DNA of 64,000 nucleotides, from the NCBI RefSeq assembly GCF_006345805.1, contig NC_043000.1, positions 1,488,001-1,552,000 of the forward strand, in the 5' to 3' direction. The position numbers are program-made. Below, in pieces: positions 14,952-20,900 of this stretch (its first letter is position 1; every line of letters starts with the position of its first letter). This DNA is from Octopus sinensis (Eukaryota).

Positions 14952-17900
14952 CATTATTATTATAAGCACTCAAAGAAAATTGTGTAATGTTATTCTTTAT
15001 TATTTCTCTTCAAGCTACATGAGGAAATCACATGTGAGTAGATCCACCCAGCATTGCTGACAATGACTAAGTTATATTTACCGACCATTAATCCTTGTTA
15101 TTTGGAGGGAATCAACCCCTTCACTGATAAACAAGATAAAACCATCTCAAAACCAATGAATGTTATGTCCTTACTTTTGTTAATATCTGACAAATCATAT
15201 CATTTTCATATTCTGTATGATAAAGATACCATTATGATATGTGCATGATAAAAGTACTATTATATGTATATAATATAAGCACCTCTATCATCTGTGTGAT
15301 AAAGCTACTATTATCATGTGTATGAGATAAACATACATTATTCTATGTATATCAGTGGTACTCAGCCATTTTTTACCTATGGACCCCTGTGATATCTGTT
15401 TTACTCTATTAGACCTGCATAACTTTTTGATATTTAAAAAAACCTATTCTAATTTGATAATGAAATTGTATAAACAATATTGTTAAAATATTTTATGTAT
15501 TGTTGAAATATAATTGATTTATTACATTTAAACTTTAACATCAAAATCTTATATGGATCCTCAAGGCCCATATAGACTCCCAAAGGTCATATAAACCCCC
15601 AAGGGCCATATAGACTTCCAAGTGCCATATGGACCCCAGTTGAGAACCACTGATGTATATGATAAAGATATGTTTAATAAATGGGGAATATAGCATTTAA
15701 TGTCAGCAATGCATTATACATTATGTATGCGCTCTTTACAGCTTTAACCATCTCTATGTACCCAGTACAGCTTGTGTCATTTCTATCTTATTATTATCAA
15801 TTCAGTTTGTACTATCTCTGTTATGTACCCTGTCTAGTCTGTACCATCGCTAATTATGTACCCTGTATAGCCTCTGGCATCTCTCTCTTCCATAACCTGT
15901 ACAGTGTGTACCATTTCTATTATATTACCCAACCTAGCTTGTACCATCTCTGATTATGTACCCTGAAGAATCAGCACCATCTGGCCTGTACCTTCTCTAA
16001 TTATGTACTCCATACAGTATGTACCATTTCTATCTTACATACTTTGTACATTCTGTACTATCTCCATTATGTACCCTGCTTAGCCTTATCATCTCAGATC
16101 TGTACCCTGCCTAACTTGTACCATCTCTATTATGCACCCTGTACAGTGTGCATCATCTCTGATTATGTACCTTGTACAGTCAGTACCATCTCTGTTCTGT
16201 ACCCTGTCTAACCTGTACCATCTTTAATTATGTACCTGTATAGGCCATACCATTTCTGTTATGTACCTTGCTTAGCCTATACACTTTGTATTATCTCTGT
16301 TCTGTACCATCTCTATCTTATATACCTTACACAGTCTGTACCATCTCTGTTATGTACCCTGTCTAACCTATACAATCTCTGATTAGGTACTCTGTACAGT
16401 CTGAATCATCTCTGTAATGTCCTCTGCCTATCCAGTACCATCTTCAGCTTATGTACCTTGCGTATACTGAGCTATTTCTAGACTCTATGCCCTATCTAGT
16501 TTGCACCCTCTCTATATTAAATGCCATCTTTGATACCCACTCATCCCTCTGTCTATCATCTCTCTATTCACCTGTCAAACTTGTACTGTTTCTGAGCACC
16601 TTTATCTAGTCTCCAGCGCTTGTAGATTACATAATTAATCTAGTCTATGCTACTTTATATGTTATTCGCCCTGTCTGGTCTGTGTGCTTTACTGATATAT
16701 ATCAATAGAAAATATAAATGTTGACAAGGAAATCAATAACCTGGTGTTGTATTATTTCTGTCCCTGTTGTACAGATGCTCCATTATCACTCACACTATTA
16801 GAAACGCAATGAAGTAGTGATTGGCGCTTTGGAAATCTGTAACCAACAATGCTTTCAATCACAAAATGCAGTATCATCATCATCATCATCATCATCATCA
16901 TTTAGCGTCCGCTTTCCATGCTAGCATGGGTTGGACGGTTTAACTGGGGTCTGTGAAGCCGGAAGGCTTCATCAGGCCCAGTCAGATTTGGCAGTGTTTC
17001 TACAGCTGGATGCCCTTCCTAACGCCTATAAATTTCTAAATTTCTGTTTTTTAATATATATATTGTGTACTCTACTGAGCCTGCATTATTTATCCGTAAT
17101 GCACTATGAATAACTTGTACCATTTGTTTCGTTATGTACTCTGTATAACCTCTGGTTTATGTACCCAGTATATATTGTAACCTCTAGTATATGTTGGTAC
17201 CTGGTATATATTGTAATATTTCTAGCATATGTATGTACCTAGTAGATATTGTAACATCTATAGAGCATGTATGTACCCAGTATATGTTGTAATGTCTGTG
17301 ACATTTGTATGTTCCCAGTATACATTGTGCTATCTATAGTATTTGTATATATCCTATTTCTTTGATGCCATCAGTAAGTGTTGTATCAGTATATGTATGT
17401 ACTATATATACCCTCTATTTGGTTGTAATATTCTATACTGTATTCCATTTACCTTGAAGGTAACCATATATTCCCTAACTTTTCCAAAAGGGTGGCAGTG
17501 ACTTCAGAGTTTTGACCTGCTAGCCTTCATCACACTGTCTGATGAAGGCTATTAGCCCGAAACTTTGAAGCTACTGACAACACTCTTCTTTGAGTAATTC
17601 TTCTGTTTAATGTTAATTTTTTTTTTTACTATAACTTGACATAAAAGCAGTATATATATGTGTGTGTGTGTCTGTATTTATTTATATATATATGTATGTA
17701 TGTATGTATGTATACATATGTACAGAAGTATGTGTTGCTATGTTTCAGAACGGCTGACAGCTGCAAATCCTCAACAGACATCGTCATCATCATCAAGTCG
17801 AAGTGGGACCCCAGCACCAACTGCGTCAACTACATCAACTCCAGCAGAACCATCACCTCCTGCGGCTGCAGCAGCAGCAGCACCACCACCACCACCTCCA

Positions 17901-20900
17901 CCTCCTCCTCCACCACCACCCCCTCCACCGCCGCCGCCACCACCTCCACCACCACCCATGTAAAATATCTCTTCCGAAACATCGAAGAACAAACTCAAAA
18001 TGTTATGGTTTATTTACCGAACTGGTTACTCCAGAGGTAGAAGCTTCCACTATTATTGTTATTATTGTTATTATTATTATTATTATTATTGCTATCTCTG
18101 ATATATTAATAATTCTCAAATCCCCACTTTTGTCCTAAAAATCAACCCCTTTTTGTTAGATTATTTGTTTGTTTAAAATCTGCTGTTCATTATCTTCAGC
18201 GATAAATCCTTAAAAATGTCTTAGCCCGAAGGCCGCGGCCATGCTGGAGCTCCACCGCTGATAAATGTTTATCTTCAGAAATATATTTTACATTAATAAT
18301 GTTCAAGTTGACCGGTTCCCTTTTTTTCCCCTCCTTTCCTTTCTTCCAATGAAAGACCAGTCTTAATTTCTTTCAGGATAGCTCCTACCTCCACCCCATC
18401 CCTCCTCACCAGACCTTTTTCCCAGCTCACCTCAAGAGAAGGTTCCATAACCATGAGAGTGACCAAATTTGTTTCTGTGATGATTGTTAGACTAGCAGTG
18501 TCGAGCTGAAGGAGTTTAATGGTGCAATAGTTTAAGAGTACAAAAGAATGATATTATATCCCCATGTCAGGGACCCTTAAGAATAATTTACACATTATAC
18601 TACAGTGTCATGTTTGTAGGTCCCTTGAGATATAGCTCTTTTTTTTTTGACCCCTACAGATCCTCACCCACCCTATTTACCAAACACAGGTATAGAAATA
18701 AAGATTATTTTTATACCAACTCTTGTTTCATTGTTTTTATTTATTATTATTATTATTGCTATCTCTGATATATTAATAATTCTCAAATCCCCACTTTTGT
18801 CCTAAAAATCAACCCCTTTTTGTTAGATTATTTGTTTGTTTAAAATCTGCTGTTCATTATCTTCAGCGATAAATCCTTAAAAATGTCTTAGCCCGAAGGC
18901 CGCGGCCATGCTGGAGCTCCACCGCTGATAAATGTTTATCTTCAGAAATATATTTTACATTAATAATGTTCAAGTTGACCGGTTCCCTTTTTTTCCCCTC
19001 CTTTCCTTTCTTCCAATGAAAGACCAGTCTTAATTTCTTTCAGGATAGCTCCTACCTCCACCCCATCCCTCCTCACCAGACCTTTTTCCCAGCTCACCTC
19101 AAGAGAAGGTTCCATAACCATGAGAGTGACCAAATTGTTTCTGTGATGATTGTTAGACTAGCAGTGTCGAGCTGAAGGAGTTTAATGGTGCAATAGTTTA
19201 AGAGTACAAAAGAATGATATTATATCCCCATGTCAGGGACCCTTAAGAATAATTTACACATTATACTACAGTGTCATGTTTGTAGGTCCCTTGAGATATA
19301 GCTCTTTTTTTTTTGACCCCTGCAGATCCTCACCCACCCTATTTACCAAACACAGGTATAGAAATAAAGATTATTTTTATACCAACTCTTGTTTCATTGT
19401 TTTTATTTATTTATTATTTTTTGTGTGCATGTATTGTTGATCAATCTGCTAAAAATAGCAACCATATCTCTCTAAAATTACTCTCAGCCATGTTAAAAAG
19501 TGAAGGACACATTGGATAATGAAGACATAGGTATGCCAAATCCAAGAGAAAGACGGAAGGGTCTTAGAGGAAACATTTGTTTATAGATCTGTTAGATAAG
19601 GGCTCACTTGCAGCTAAACCACAACAAACTCTTACATGTATGCACTGATTTGAAAATCTGTCCTTGTTTATCATCGATTCATTCTTCATTCATCACTGAT
19701 CTGGGATAAATTGATACGCCAGTTGTGAATTGCATTATACTTATCACAAATCCACCTGCTGAAAGTTAATCAGTCTTTGCCTGAGAAGATCAGGCAAAGA
19801 CAATTCCAACTATCTGGTCACTGTGTGCACCACCCTGAAGTGGAAGCATCCAGATAAGTCATGTGGAACCAACTTCATGGGCATGTAAGAAGAGGTAAAC
19901 ACCATCACATTTATTTCGACAACATGATCACAGACATTGGCCTGGAATGTATCCAGGACCTTGGGGCAGTGATGTTGCAACGAGAAGTATGGTGGGTAGA
20001 CGTTGTTGCTGCAGCCCAGGTTGGCCATTTAGTGTCAGCTTTCCATGCTAACATGGGTTACACGGTTTGCCTGGAACTGGTAAGCCACAGAGCTGCACAA
20101 AGTTCCAGTCTCATTTGGCATGGTTTCTTCAGTTGGATGCTTTTCCTAATGCCAACAACTCCAAGATTGTAATCATTATCATCATCATCATCATTTAGCG
20201 TCCGCTTTCCATGCTAGCATGGGTTGGACGGTTCAACTGGGGTCTGGGAAGCCAGAAGGCTGCACCAGACTACAGTCTGATCTGGCAATGTTTCTACGGC
20301 TGGATGCTCTTCCTAACACCAACCACTCCGTGAGTGTAGTGGGTGCTTTTTATGTGCCACCGGCATGGGGGCCAGGCGAGGCTGGCAACGGCCACGATCG
20401 GATGGTGCTTTTTACGTGCCACCAGCACAGGTGCCAGACAAGGCTGGCAACGGCCATGATCGGATGGTGCTTTTTATGTGCCACTGGCACAGAGGCCAGT
20501 CGGGGCAGCAATAATAATAAATTGATCTGTGATAACAAGGGTCAGCAGTCAATCAAAGATTCTGCCTGGACCACAAAAGTGCACCCCATTGATCATCTAC
20601 AATACTCAGGACACTTTTCACCTGTAAATTCACCTAAAGCTTAAAATTTTAATGTTTGAGATCATCATTATACAAGCAATGTCTTTTGTTTCCAATCTTC
20701 TGTGTAAACTTGTTCGGCCATGAAGAAATATTACTGTTAGACAGTTCAACCAATGCCAGCATGGAAGGCAGACATTAAATGGTGATTAGTATCTACTAGC
20801 AGCATAGCCCGGCGTTGCCCGGGTATGTAAGAGCCCCTAGTAGGCAATGACTAATCCCAATCTAGTCCTTTCCCTCTAGGGAACGAAGGCGCATGTGTAG

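What the first reader, a model, noticed from the sequence alone, without database searches (positions are those of the whole stretch)
17749..17963. WASHC4 appears to end in a 25-proline tract absent from the human protein
The exon is in phase with the conserved upstream exon. Its Pro run mixes CCA, CCT, CCC and CCG with no non-Pro codon. That argues for selection on protein rather than DNA slippage, unlike the other triplet tracts in this window. Human WASHC4, as I recall it, ends in a short acidic/Ser tail. Polyproline tracts bind profilin, EVH1, SH3 and WW domains, and in the WASH complex such a tract is normally on WASHC1. An added tract on SWIP could recruit profilin-actin or Ena/VASP to endosomes as a lineage-specific rewiring (inference).
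Basis: partly seen in the sequence, partly recalled or inferred. Interest (0 to 1): 0.7.

Follow-up and report, generated by a model that had tools for sequence, protein, structure and literature searches.

The report
Octopus WASHC4 polyproline tail, ancient not new
The last exon of the octopus WASHC4 (SWIP) gene can encode a tail ending in 25 prolines, but shorter versions of the same tail end WASHC4 in a sponge, a worm, a clam, an acorn worm and a lamprey, so it looks like an old feature lengthened in octopus, not an octopus invention.

Summary
Window 17749-17963 (+) starts at a canonical acceptor and is in phase with the strong donor of the last conserved WASHC4 exon (12592-12679). It reads 71 codons ending Ala7-Pro25-Met-stop. 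Seven upstream exons hit Pfam WASH-7_mid/WASH-7_C in order and are 100% identical to residues 914-1146 of an Octopus vulgaris WASHC4 model.

None of 36 named jawed-vertebrate models has such a tract. But WASHC4 models of Solemya, Glandiceps and Lampetra end in Pro6-10-LPPM-stop. Owenia, Sycon and several unnamed deep-branching homologues end in similar tracts. The tail is therefore probably ancestral, and octopus has lengthened it.

The codon-mix argument is weak. Other triplet arrays in this window also give 26-29-residue runs with mixed synonymous codons.

One caveat remains. The O. vulgaris model uses the same acceptor but a weaker donor 14 nt downstream, which makes the protein end two codons into this exon and leaves the tract untranslated. 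No transcript data could be consulted. Profilin-type binding is inference.

The parts
115..268 (+). WASHC4 coding exon (end of the WASH-7_mid domain); first exon of the gene visible in the window
   Evidence: Pfam PF14744 E=2.3e-10, profile positions 317-345 of 346. 100% identical to O. vulgaris model P0002 residues 914-965. Donor AAA|GTAAGT matches the consensus at 8 of 9 positions.
717..780 (+). WASHC4 coding exon (start of WASH-7_C)
   Evidence: PF14746 profile positions 5-28, E=5.6e-4. Equals P0002 residues 966-986. Donor AAG|GTAAGT matches 9 of 9.
3045..3128 (+). WASHC4 coding exon
   Evidence: PF14746 profile positions 27-56, E=5.3e-10. Equals P0002 residues 987-1014.
4888..4984 (+). WASHC4 coding exon
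   Evidence: PF14746 profile positions 56-88, E=3.1e-10. Equals P0002 residues 1015-1047.
8838..8932 (+). WASHC4 coding exon
   Evidence: PF14746 profile positions 87-122, E=8.1e-12. Equals P0002 residues 1047-1078.
10317..10418 (+). WASHC4 coding exon
   Evidence: PF14746 profile positions 122-157, E=0.029. Equals P0002 residues 1079-1112.
12592..12679 (+). Last conserved WASHC4 exon; the Pfam domain ends here at profile position 175 of 175 and is followed by a short acidic linker. It ends one base into a codon.
   Evidence: PF14746 profile positions 159-175. Equals P0002 from residue 1113. Sequence read.
12680..12685 (+). Strong 5' splice site (AAG|GTAACA); using it puts the terminal exon in the Pro frame
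   Evidence: Matches the consensus at 7 of 9 positions, within the 6-9 range of the six other donors of this gene in the window.
12694..12699 (+). Weak alternative 5' splice site (ATT|GTTATT) implied by the O. vulgaris model; using it makes the protein end two codons into the terminal exon
   Evidence: P0002 continues five residues past 12679, then ends in two residues plus stop that equal the phase-0 reading of 17749-17757. Consensus matches 5 of 9, with the -1, +3 and +5 positions all mismatched.
17749..17963 (+). Terminal coding exon: Ser/Thr/Ala/Pro-rich linker, Ala7, Pro25, Met, TAA
   Evidence: Acceptor ...gctatgtttcag|. Translation. Tail architecture shared with other WASHC4 proteins.
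17883..17957 (+). The 25-codon proline tract (CCA14 CCT6 CCG3 CCC2)
   Evidence: TRF also reports it as period 3 and period 12, 79-84% matches.
18697..18702 (+). First AATAAA downstream of the stop; a possible polyadenylation signal, weak evidence only
   Evidence: the next one is at 19363.

Best explanation
Window 17749-17963 is the true last coding exon of the octopus WASHC4 (SWIP) gene. Spliced from the strong donor at 12680, it adds a 71-residue low-complexity tail, probably disordered, that ends Ala7-Pro25-Met. This tail is the octopus version of an old element of WASHC4. After the conserved domain and an acidic linker, many animal WASHC4 proteins carry a Ser/Thr/Ala/Pro-rich spacer. The spacer is followed by a small residue (Gly or Ala), 6-10 prolines, and the protein end within the next zero to six residues, most often as LPPM. 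Octopus lengthened the proline run to 25, probably by in-frame triplet or 12-nt slippage, and lost the Leu. Jawed vertebrates, and many arthropod models, lack the element. Shown here: gene identity, splice phase, tract composition and the cross-phylum tail architecture. Inferred: that octopus transcripts use the 12680 donor; that the tail is a free proline-rich ligand on the outside of the WASH complex; and that its most likely partner is profilin (profilin-actin). Profilin binds plain polyproline preceded by Gly/Ala/Ser, so the tail would supply actin monomers next to the WASH1 VCA region on endosomes.
For: Gene identity: seven upstream exons hit WASH-7_mid and WASH-7_C in colinear profile order. 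They equal residues 914-1146 of the O. vulgaris WASHC4 model at 100%.

Splice: donor 12680 matches the consensus at 7 of 9 positions and leaves phase 1. The acceptor at 17748/17749 has a pyrimidine tract, and the phase-1 reading is open for 71 codons.

Homology of the tail: Solemya velum, Glandiceps talaboti and Lampetra fluviatilis isoform X1 end Pro10-, Pro9- and Pro6-LPPM-stop. Owenia ends Pro10-MAF-stop, Sycon Pro9-LPPGLL-stop, and a EukProt transcript-derived protein Pro7-LPVF-stop. Unnamed P0139, P0163 and P0240 end with Pro8 at or within 4 residues of the C-terminus. Four echinoderms end in a degenerate [LI]PAIM plus two residues. Octopus shares the small-residue run, the Pro run and the terminal Met.

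An independent annotation (P0002) uses the same acceptor at 17749.

All 11 non-CCA codons differ only at the third base, in 7 separate runs, using T, C and G.

Profilin's affinity for polyproline is standard; a methods passage of PMC7806238 purifies profilin on a polyproline column.
Against: No transcript, junction or peptide data for octopus could be consulted.

The only octopus protein model I could see (P0002) does not encode the tail. It uses the donor at 12694 and stops two codons into the exon.

The search with the tail itself found nothing. This is uninformative, because only cluster representatives are searched.

Most WASHC4 models lack a Pro run. Only 6 of 48 named non-gnathostome models examined have a run of 6 or more, and the search that found three of them was biased towards such tails.

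The codon-mix evidence is weak, because non-genic arrays in the window show equally long runs with mixed synonymous codons. It also cannot tell Pro on + from Gly on -.

No binding partner was tested. The octopus tract lacks the PPLP, the [FLWY]PxxP and the basic residues needed by WW class II, EVH1 and SH3 domains.
Confidence: 0.65

Rival explanations
1. The exon is used, but from the downstream donor (12694), as in the O. vulgaris model. The protein then ends two codons into the exon, and the (CCN)25 tract is an untranslated microsatellite in the 3' UTR. A milder form: both donors are used, giving tail-less and tailed isoforms.
For: P0002 ends with five read-through residues plus exactly the two residues and stop given by the phase-0 reading of 17749-17757. 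The window is full of triplet arrays with long homo-amino-acid readings. Many orthologues are listed as tail-less isoforms X2-X5.
Against: The donor at 12694 is ATT|GTTATT, matching only 5 of 9 consensus positions and weaker than all seven other donors. It lies inside an (ATT)n/(AGT)n microsatellite. The phase-1 reading reproduces the Pro-run-then-Met-stop ending of WASHC4 in three other phyla, which is unlikely for a UTR by chance. The neighbouring cuttlefish model also runs into a repeat, which shows that cephalopod models are unreliable at this end.
Confidence: 0.17
2. One reading: the polyproline tail is a cephalopod or octopus gain that newly places a profilin or Ena/VASP site on SWIP.
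For: At 25 prolines the tract is 2.5 to 4 times longer than in any other WASHC4 seen. Most mollusc models shown lack a Pro run. The linker part of the exon aligns poorly with other species.
Against: The same architecture ends WASHC4 in Solemya (a mollusc), Owenia, Glandiceps, Lampetra, Sycon and deep-branching unnamed homologues that are only 37-40% identical to all animal sequences compared. The octopus tract has no EVH1-type residue before the prolines.
Confidence: 0.06
3. The tract is not WASHC4 coding sequence at all. It is either a neutral microsatellite next to a chance acceptor, or the first exon of a minus-strand gene that begins Met-Gly25.
For: The minus strand reads ATG followed by 25 Gly codons, seven Ala and an open frame down to 17771. 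TRF scores the tract as an ordinary period-3/12 array.
Against: The minus-strand ORF has no Pfam match. Nothing gene-like lies downstream on the minus strand; 18-64 kb holds repeats and reverse-transcriptase fragments. The plus-strand phase, acceptor and ending match WASHC4 orthologues.
Confidence: 0.04

Closest known systems
C-terminal Pro-run tails of other WASHC4/SWIP proteins in public records (Solemya velum P0042, Glandiceps talaboti P0269, Lampetra fluviatilis isoform X1 P0270, Owenia fusiformis P0038, Sycon ciliatum P0045)
   Same: Same protein family and same position, after the end of WASH-7_C and an acidic linker. Same order of parts: Ser/Thr/Ala/Pro-rich spacer, small residues, uninterrupted Pro run, and the protein end within a few residues. 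The terminal Met is shared with three of them.
   Different: Octopus has 25 Pro against 6-10. It has seven Ala rather than Gly-Gly or Gly-Ala before the run, and no Leu (PPPM instead of LPPM). As far as four full-text searches show, these tails are not described in print.
Jawed-vertebrate WASHC4/SWIP (the experimentally studied form)
   Same: Orthologous gene. The visible exons are 78-80% identical at protein level to named vertebrate models over the exon used as query. The acidic linker after the domain is the same.
   Different: Vertebrate tails are short, Ser/Asp-rich and end mostly in Lys. None of 36 named models has a Pro run of 5 or more. No solved structure of any WASHC4 matched the octopus model in the PDB sequence search.
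Proline-rich regions of WASP-family nucleation-promoting factors and formin FH1 domains (profilin-actin delivery); recalled background, not tested here
   Same: Uninterrupted polyproline preceded by Gly/Ala, on a subunit of an Arp2/3-activating complex. The orthologues' PPPPLPP resembles FH1 tracks.
   Different: It sits on the large scaffold subunit rather than on the VCA-bearing subunit. It is at the extreme C-terminus and is a single tract rather than several. No binding data exist.

Membership tests
WASHC4 / SWIP (Pfam WASH-7 family) | WASH-7_mid and WASH-7_C domains in colinear order | tested here: met
   Seven exon translations hit PF14744 (profile positions 317-345) and then PF14746 (positions 5-28, 27-56, 56-88, 87-122, 122-157, 159-175) in genomic order. 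Four of the seven single-exon scores exceed the 25-bit cutoff on their own; three are below it.
WASHC4 / SWIP (Pfam WASH-7 family) | Orthology to annotated WASHC4 proteins | tested here: met
   The exon query retrieved 394 proteins at E<=0.001. The full-length hits among the best 120 carry PF14744, PF14745 and PF14746 and are named WASH complex subunit 4 or 7. The window is 100% identical to O. vulgaris model residues 914-1146.
WASHC4 / SWIP (Pfam WASH-7 family) | N-terminal WASH-4_N domain and the rest of the gene | not testable with these tools
   This part lies upstream of the window. The window starts inside the gene.
WASHC4 C-terminal Pro-run tail (defined here from database proteins) | Uninterrupted run of 6 or more Pro, within 6 residues of the C-terminus, preceded by Gly/Ala/Ser | tested here: met
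   Octopus has Ala7-Pro25-Met-stop. Compare with the nine other tails aligned.
WASHC4 C-terminal Pro-run tail (defined here from database proteins) | LPPM (or LPxΦ) ending | tested here: inconclusive
   The terminal Met is shared with Solemya, Glandiceps and Lampetra, but the Leu is absent in octopus (PPPM).
WASHC4 C-terminal Pro-run tail (defined here from database proteins) | Present in the mature transcript or protein | not testable with these tools
The only visible octopus model lacks the tail.
Profilin-binding polyproline (Gly/Ala/Ser/Leu followed by 5 or more Pro; motif recalled, from no call) | Sequence motif | tested here: met
   Ala followed by 25 Pro. Orthologues have Gly or Ala followed by 6-10 Pro.
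Profilin-binding polyproline (Gly/Ala/Ser/Leu followed by 5 or more Pro; motif recalled, from no call) | Actual binding to profilin | not testable with these tools
   No octopus profilin sequence was in hand, and complex prediction accepts only session sequences or bacterial/phage references. No job was sent.
EVH1 class I ligand ([FLWY]PxΦP; motif recalled) | Aromatic residue or Leu immediately before the prolines | tested here: not met
   The octopus tract is preceded by Ala and followed by Met-stop.
WW class II ligand (PPLP; motif recalled) | PPLP core | tested here: not met
   There is no Leu in the octopus tract. The core is present in Solemya, Glandiceps, Lampetra and Sycon.
SH3 class I/II ligand ([RK]xxPxxP or PxxPx[RK]; motif recalled) | Basic residue flanking PxxP | tested here: not met
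   The only Arg residues of the exon are at positions 1 and 17, at least 27 residues before the tract. There is none after it.

The most novel reading that the evidence does not exclude
A polyproline-(L)PPM C-terminal module is an ancestral part of SWIP, present before bilaterians and possibly before animals. It gives the WASH complex a second, scaffold-borne docking site for profilin-actin or for PPLP-reading WW proteins. The module is switched on or off by splice choice: in octopus by two donors 14 nt apart that flip the reading frame of the last exon, and elsewhere by the tail-less isoforms X2-X5. It was lost in jawed vertebrates, which is why it has gone unstudied. Octopus carries a 25-residue, hyper-expanded version.
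Probability: 0.2. Interest if true: 0.6.

Novelty: new variant of a known kind. Interest (0 to 1): 0.4.

Why it matters
All functional work on the WASH complex that I could find treats SWIP as a helical scaffold and membrane-recruitment subunit. Its proline-rich, profilin-type sites are placed on WASH1 (search listings; passages of 10.1101/2022.08.16.504073). If the tail is translated, many animals, including a jawless vertebrate, carry a conserved proline tract at the very end of SWIP. That would be a cheap, testable handle on how actin monomers or adaptors reach endosomal WASH.

There is also a practical point. The C-terminus of cephalopod WASHC4 models is probably mis-annotated. The octopus model stops two codons into the last exon, and the cuttlefish model runs into a repeat.

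For the scan itself, the lesson is that the claimed lineage-specific innovation is an expansion of something old.

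Tried and rejected
Search with the tail exon itself (residues 1-46, longer proteins): 8000 candidates were scored and none reached E<=10. I give this no weight, because low-complexity words crowd the candidate list and only 90%-cluster representatives are searched. An octopus isoform carrying the tail would be hidden behind P0002.

The search of protein representatives with the first visible exon returned mostly short unnamed fragments. I examined 21 of the 150 listed, chosen as at least 600 residues long and at most 73% identical to the query, so that they could not be human. 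Three have terminal Pro8 runs. P0132 (76% identical, 1134 aa, unnamed) was left out because it might be a vertebrate or human protein. For the same reason P0119 and the other unnamed hits at 80% identity or below, and the unnamed hits, were not used.

The codon-position test gives (1/3)^11 for 11 third-base-only changes. I rejected it as a valid null after the controls. Arrays at 56552-56957, 27511-27570 and 45316-45436 also vary mainly at one unit position, and they give long runs with mixed synonymous codons.

My first codon count was one base out of register (started at 17881). The correct tract, 17883-17957, comes from the exon codon list of the same call and.

Other checks that added little:
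- PDB sequence search with the O. vulgaris model: 0 matches.
- ARAGORN: no tRNA genes in the window.
- Polyadenylation signals: only distant AATAAA sites, 734 nt or more after the stop, so weak either way.
- Literature: four full-text searches and passages of two papers gave nothing on a SWIP proline tail. Supplements are closed and were not seen.

Complex prediction, structure prediction, fold search and the protein-atlas search were not used. The tail is low-complexity and no octopus profilin was in hand.

Cephalopod genomes and transcriptomes therefore stayed unchecked.

The spliced WASHC4 model was searched and compared exon by exon only. The joined coding sequence or protein was never built, searched or folded, and that step was left out.

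Full report
**What is at the coordinates.**
One search shows a pyrimidine-rich acceptor ending in AG at 17747-17748. An exon starts at 17749 and a TAA lies at 17961-17963. Read from 17751, the exon gives 70 residues:
- a Ser/Thr/Ala/Pro-rich stretch that includes a run of six Ser;
- seven Ala;
- 25 uninterrupted Pro (17883-17957; CCA 14, CCT 6, CCG 3, CCC 2);
- one Met, then the stop.

**Which gene.**
Seven stretches upstream on the same strand translate into pieces that hit Pfam WASH-7_mid and then WASH-7_C, with colinear profile coordinates. The profile ends at position 175 of 175 inside 12592-12679. A search with the first visible exon returned 394 proteins at E<=0.001, led by an Octopus vulgaris WASHC4 model (P0002) at 100% identity and a cuttlefish model at 92%. 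Exon by exon, the window equals residues 914-1146 of P0002 without a mismatch. The window is therefore the 3' part of WASHC4 (SWIP) of Octopus vulgaris or a very close relative. The spliced model was only ever handled exon by exon; the joined sequence was not built or searched.

**Splice phase.**
The last conserved exon ends at 12679, one base into a codon, at donor AAG|GTAACA. This donor matches the consensus at 7 of 9 positions; the six other donors of the gene in the window score 6 to 9.

The octopus model P0002 ends differently. It reads five codons past 12679 into an (ATT)n/(AGT)n microsatellite and then ends with two residues. Those two residues and the stop are exactly what 17749-17757 gives when read in phase 0. 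So that annotation uses the same acceptor but a donor at 12694 (ATT|GTTATT, 5 of 9, mismatched at -1, +3 and +5). Two donors 14 nt apart thus decide whether WASHC4 ends two codons into the exon or carries the 71-residue tail.

I could not see any transcript data. The other six members of the P0002 cluster could not be listed.

**Is the tail unique to octopus? No.**
I anchored named WASHC4 models on the conserved end of the domain and read what follows.
- Solemya velum (bivalve) ends in Pro10-LPPM.
- Glandiceps talaboti (hemichordate) ends in Pro9-LPPM.
- Lampetra fluviatilis isoform X1 ends in Pro6-LPPM.
- Owenia fusiformis (annelid) ends in Pro10-MAF.
- Sycon ciliatum (sponge) ends in Pro9-LPPGLL.
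- A EukProt protein derived from a transcript assembly ends in Pro7-LPVF.
- Actinia has Pro5 near its end.
- Four echinoderms end in a degenerate [LI]PAIM plus two residues.

Among 21 unnamed, divergent representatives, three end with Pro8 at or within four residues of the C-terminus. Two of these (P0163, P0240) are only 37-40% identical to every animal sequence compared, so they are deep-branching.

In each case the Pro run is preceded by Gly, Ala or Ser, with Leu in one case (P0240). Octopus has the same layout, with Ala7 before the run, and shares the terminal Met with three phyla.

By count, 6 of 48 named non-gnathostome models examined have a terminal Pro run of 6 or more: 3 of 27 and 3 of 21. 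The second set came from a search seeded with a Pro-rich tail and is biased towards such tails. None of 36 named jawed-vertebrate models with a readable tail has a Pro run of 5 or more; three further models were truncated.

Absence from a model is not absence from the gene.
- Many tail-less entries are labelled isoform X2-X5.
- Several models plainly run into intron or repeat: octopus, cuttlefish, Batillaria, Lottia and Lymnaea (Lymnaea).
- The Lymnaea tail is rich in Thr and Ser in a way that resembles the out-of-frame reading of the octopus exon. This suggests a frame error over a Pro tract, but that is inference.

**The codon argument.**
All 11 non-CCA codons differ at the third base only, in 7 runs, using T, C and G. 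This looks like purifying selection on the protein, but the window's own controls weaken it.
- Arrays outside any recognisable gene read as His29, His26, His26 and Asn28/Leu28 with mixed synonymous codons.
- Several arrays vary almost only at one unit position.
- The variable base is also a four-fold degenerate site for the minus-strand Gly25 reading.

What remains distinctive is that this tract is the only run in the window with four synonymous codons. The stronger evidence for coding is the cross-phylum match of the ending.

**Surroundings.**
Downstream of the stop, the first AATAAA is at 18697. From 18 to 64 kb I found only microsatellites, SINE-like tandem units and reverse-transcriptase fragments. 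No minus-strand gene is there to own a Met-Gly25 first exon, and that ORF has no Pfam match.

**How it probably works.**
Shown: a terminal exon that, from the better donor, encodes a low-complexity tail ending in polyproline, and the same tail type in WASHC4 of distant animals.

Inferred: the tail is disordered and exposed, and it acts as a proline-rich ligand. Plain polyproline preceded by Gly/Ala/Ser is the classical profilin ligand (recalled). Profilin's affinity for polyproline is used routinely for its purification, as in the methods passage of PMC7806238. At 25 residues the octopus tract could hold more than one profilin.

The orthologues' PPLPP would also fit class II WW domains, but octopus has lost the Leu. 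It also lacks the residues that EVH1 or SH3 domains need.

My confidence is about 0.65 that the exon is coding in the Pro frame and homologous to the other tails. It is about 0.3 that profilin is the partner.

**What is known.**
Four full-text searches and passages of a SWIP-focused preprint gave no mention of a proline tract on SWIP. The PDB sequence search found no WASHC4 structure. Supplements were closed.

The tail therefore sits in public protein records but appears undescribed. That human WASHC4 lacks it was not tested here; it rests on recall and on the 36 named jawed-vertebrate models.

**Verdict.**

Noticed in passing
window 12680-12699 and 17749-17757: Two candidate 5' splice sites lie 14 nt apart and flip the reading frame of the last exon. 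The weaker one reproduces the C-terminus of the public O. vulgaris WASHC4 model, which therefore looks mis-annotated or represents a tail-less isoform.
   Followed up: partly
protein P0003 (Acanthosepion pharaonis WASHC4 model), last ~75 residues: After a plausible Ser/Thr/Asp-rich continuation, the cuttlefish model runs into a repeated LLPTLSLFS-type unit. This looks like read-through into a tandem repeat rather than a real C-terminus.
   Followed up: no
protein P0293 (Lymnaea stagnalis WASHC4 model), last ~100 residues: The tail is very rich in Thr and Ser and resembles the out-of-frame reading of the octopus Pro exon. It may be a Pro-tract exon read in the wrong frame.
   Followed up: no
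window 56552-56957 and 29721-30584: Very long imperfect triplet arrays (TCA/CCA and CAT units, with higher-order periods of 21, 33 and 54 nt) read as His runs of up to 29 with mixed CAT/CAC codons. No gene was recognised around them. They served as the control for the codon-mix argument.
   Followed up: partly
window 40223-41067 (+), with a further ORF at 41230-41742: Two overlapping ORFs in different frames hit Pfam RVT_1 (E=6e-18 and 4.5e-8, consecutive profile positions). This is a frameshifted reverse-transcriptase fragment of a retroelement.
   Followed up: partly
window 1065-1471, 9921-10241, 20342-20499, 25297-25469, 41910-42516: Tandem arrays of a related 61-68-nt unit recur on both strands, including inside WASHC4 introns. 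They are probably part of an abundant SINE-like repeat of this genome.
   Followed up: no
window 37166-38027 and 61597-62419: A 144-nt unit is repeated 6 times at 98% identity, and a 26-nt minisatellite is repeated about 32 times at 92%. ARAGORN found no tRNA gene anywhere in the window.
   Followed up: no
window 18196-18372 and 18863-19039: Two stretches just downstream of the WASHC4 stop give identical ORF translations on both strands. This points to a direct repeat spaced about 667 nt apart within the probable 3' UTR or flank.
   Followed up: no
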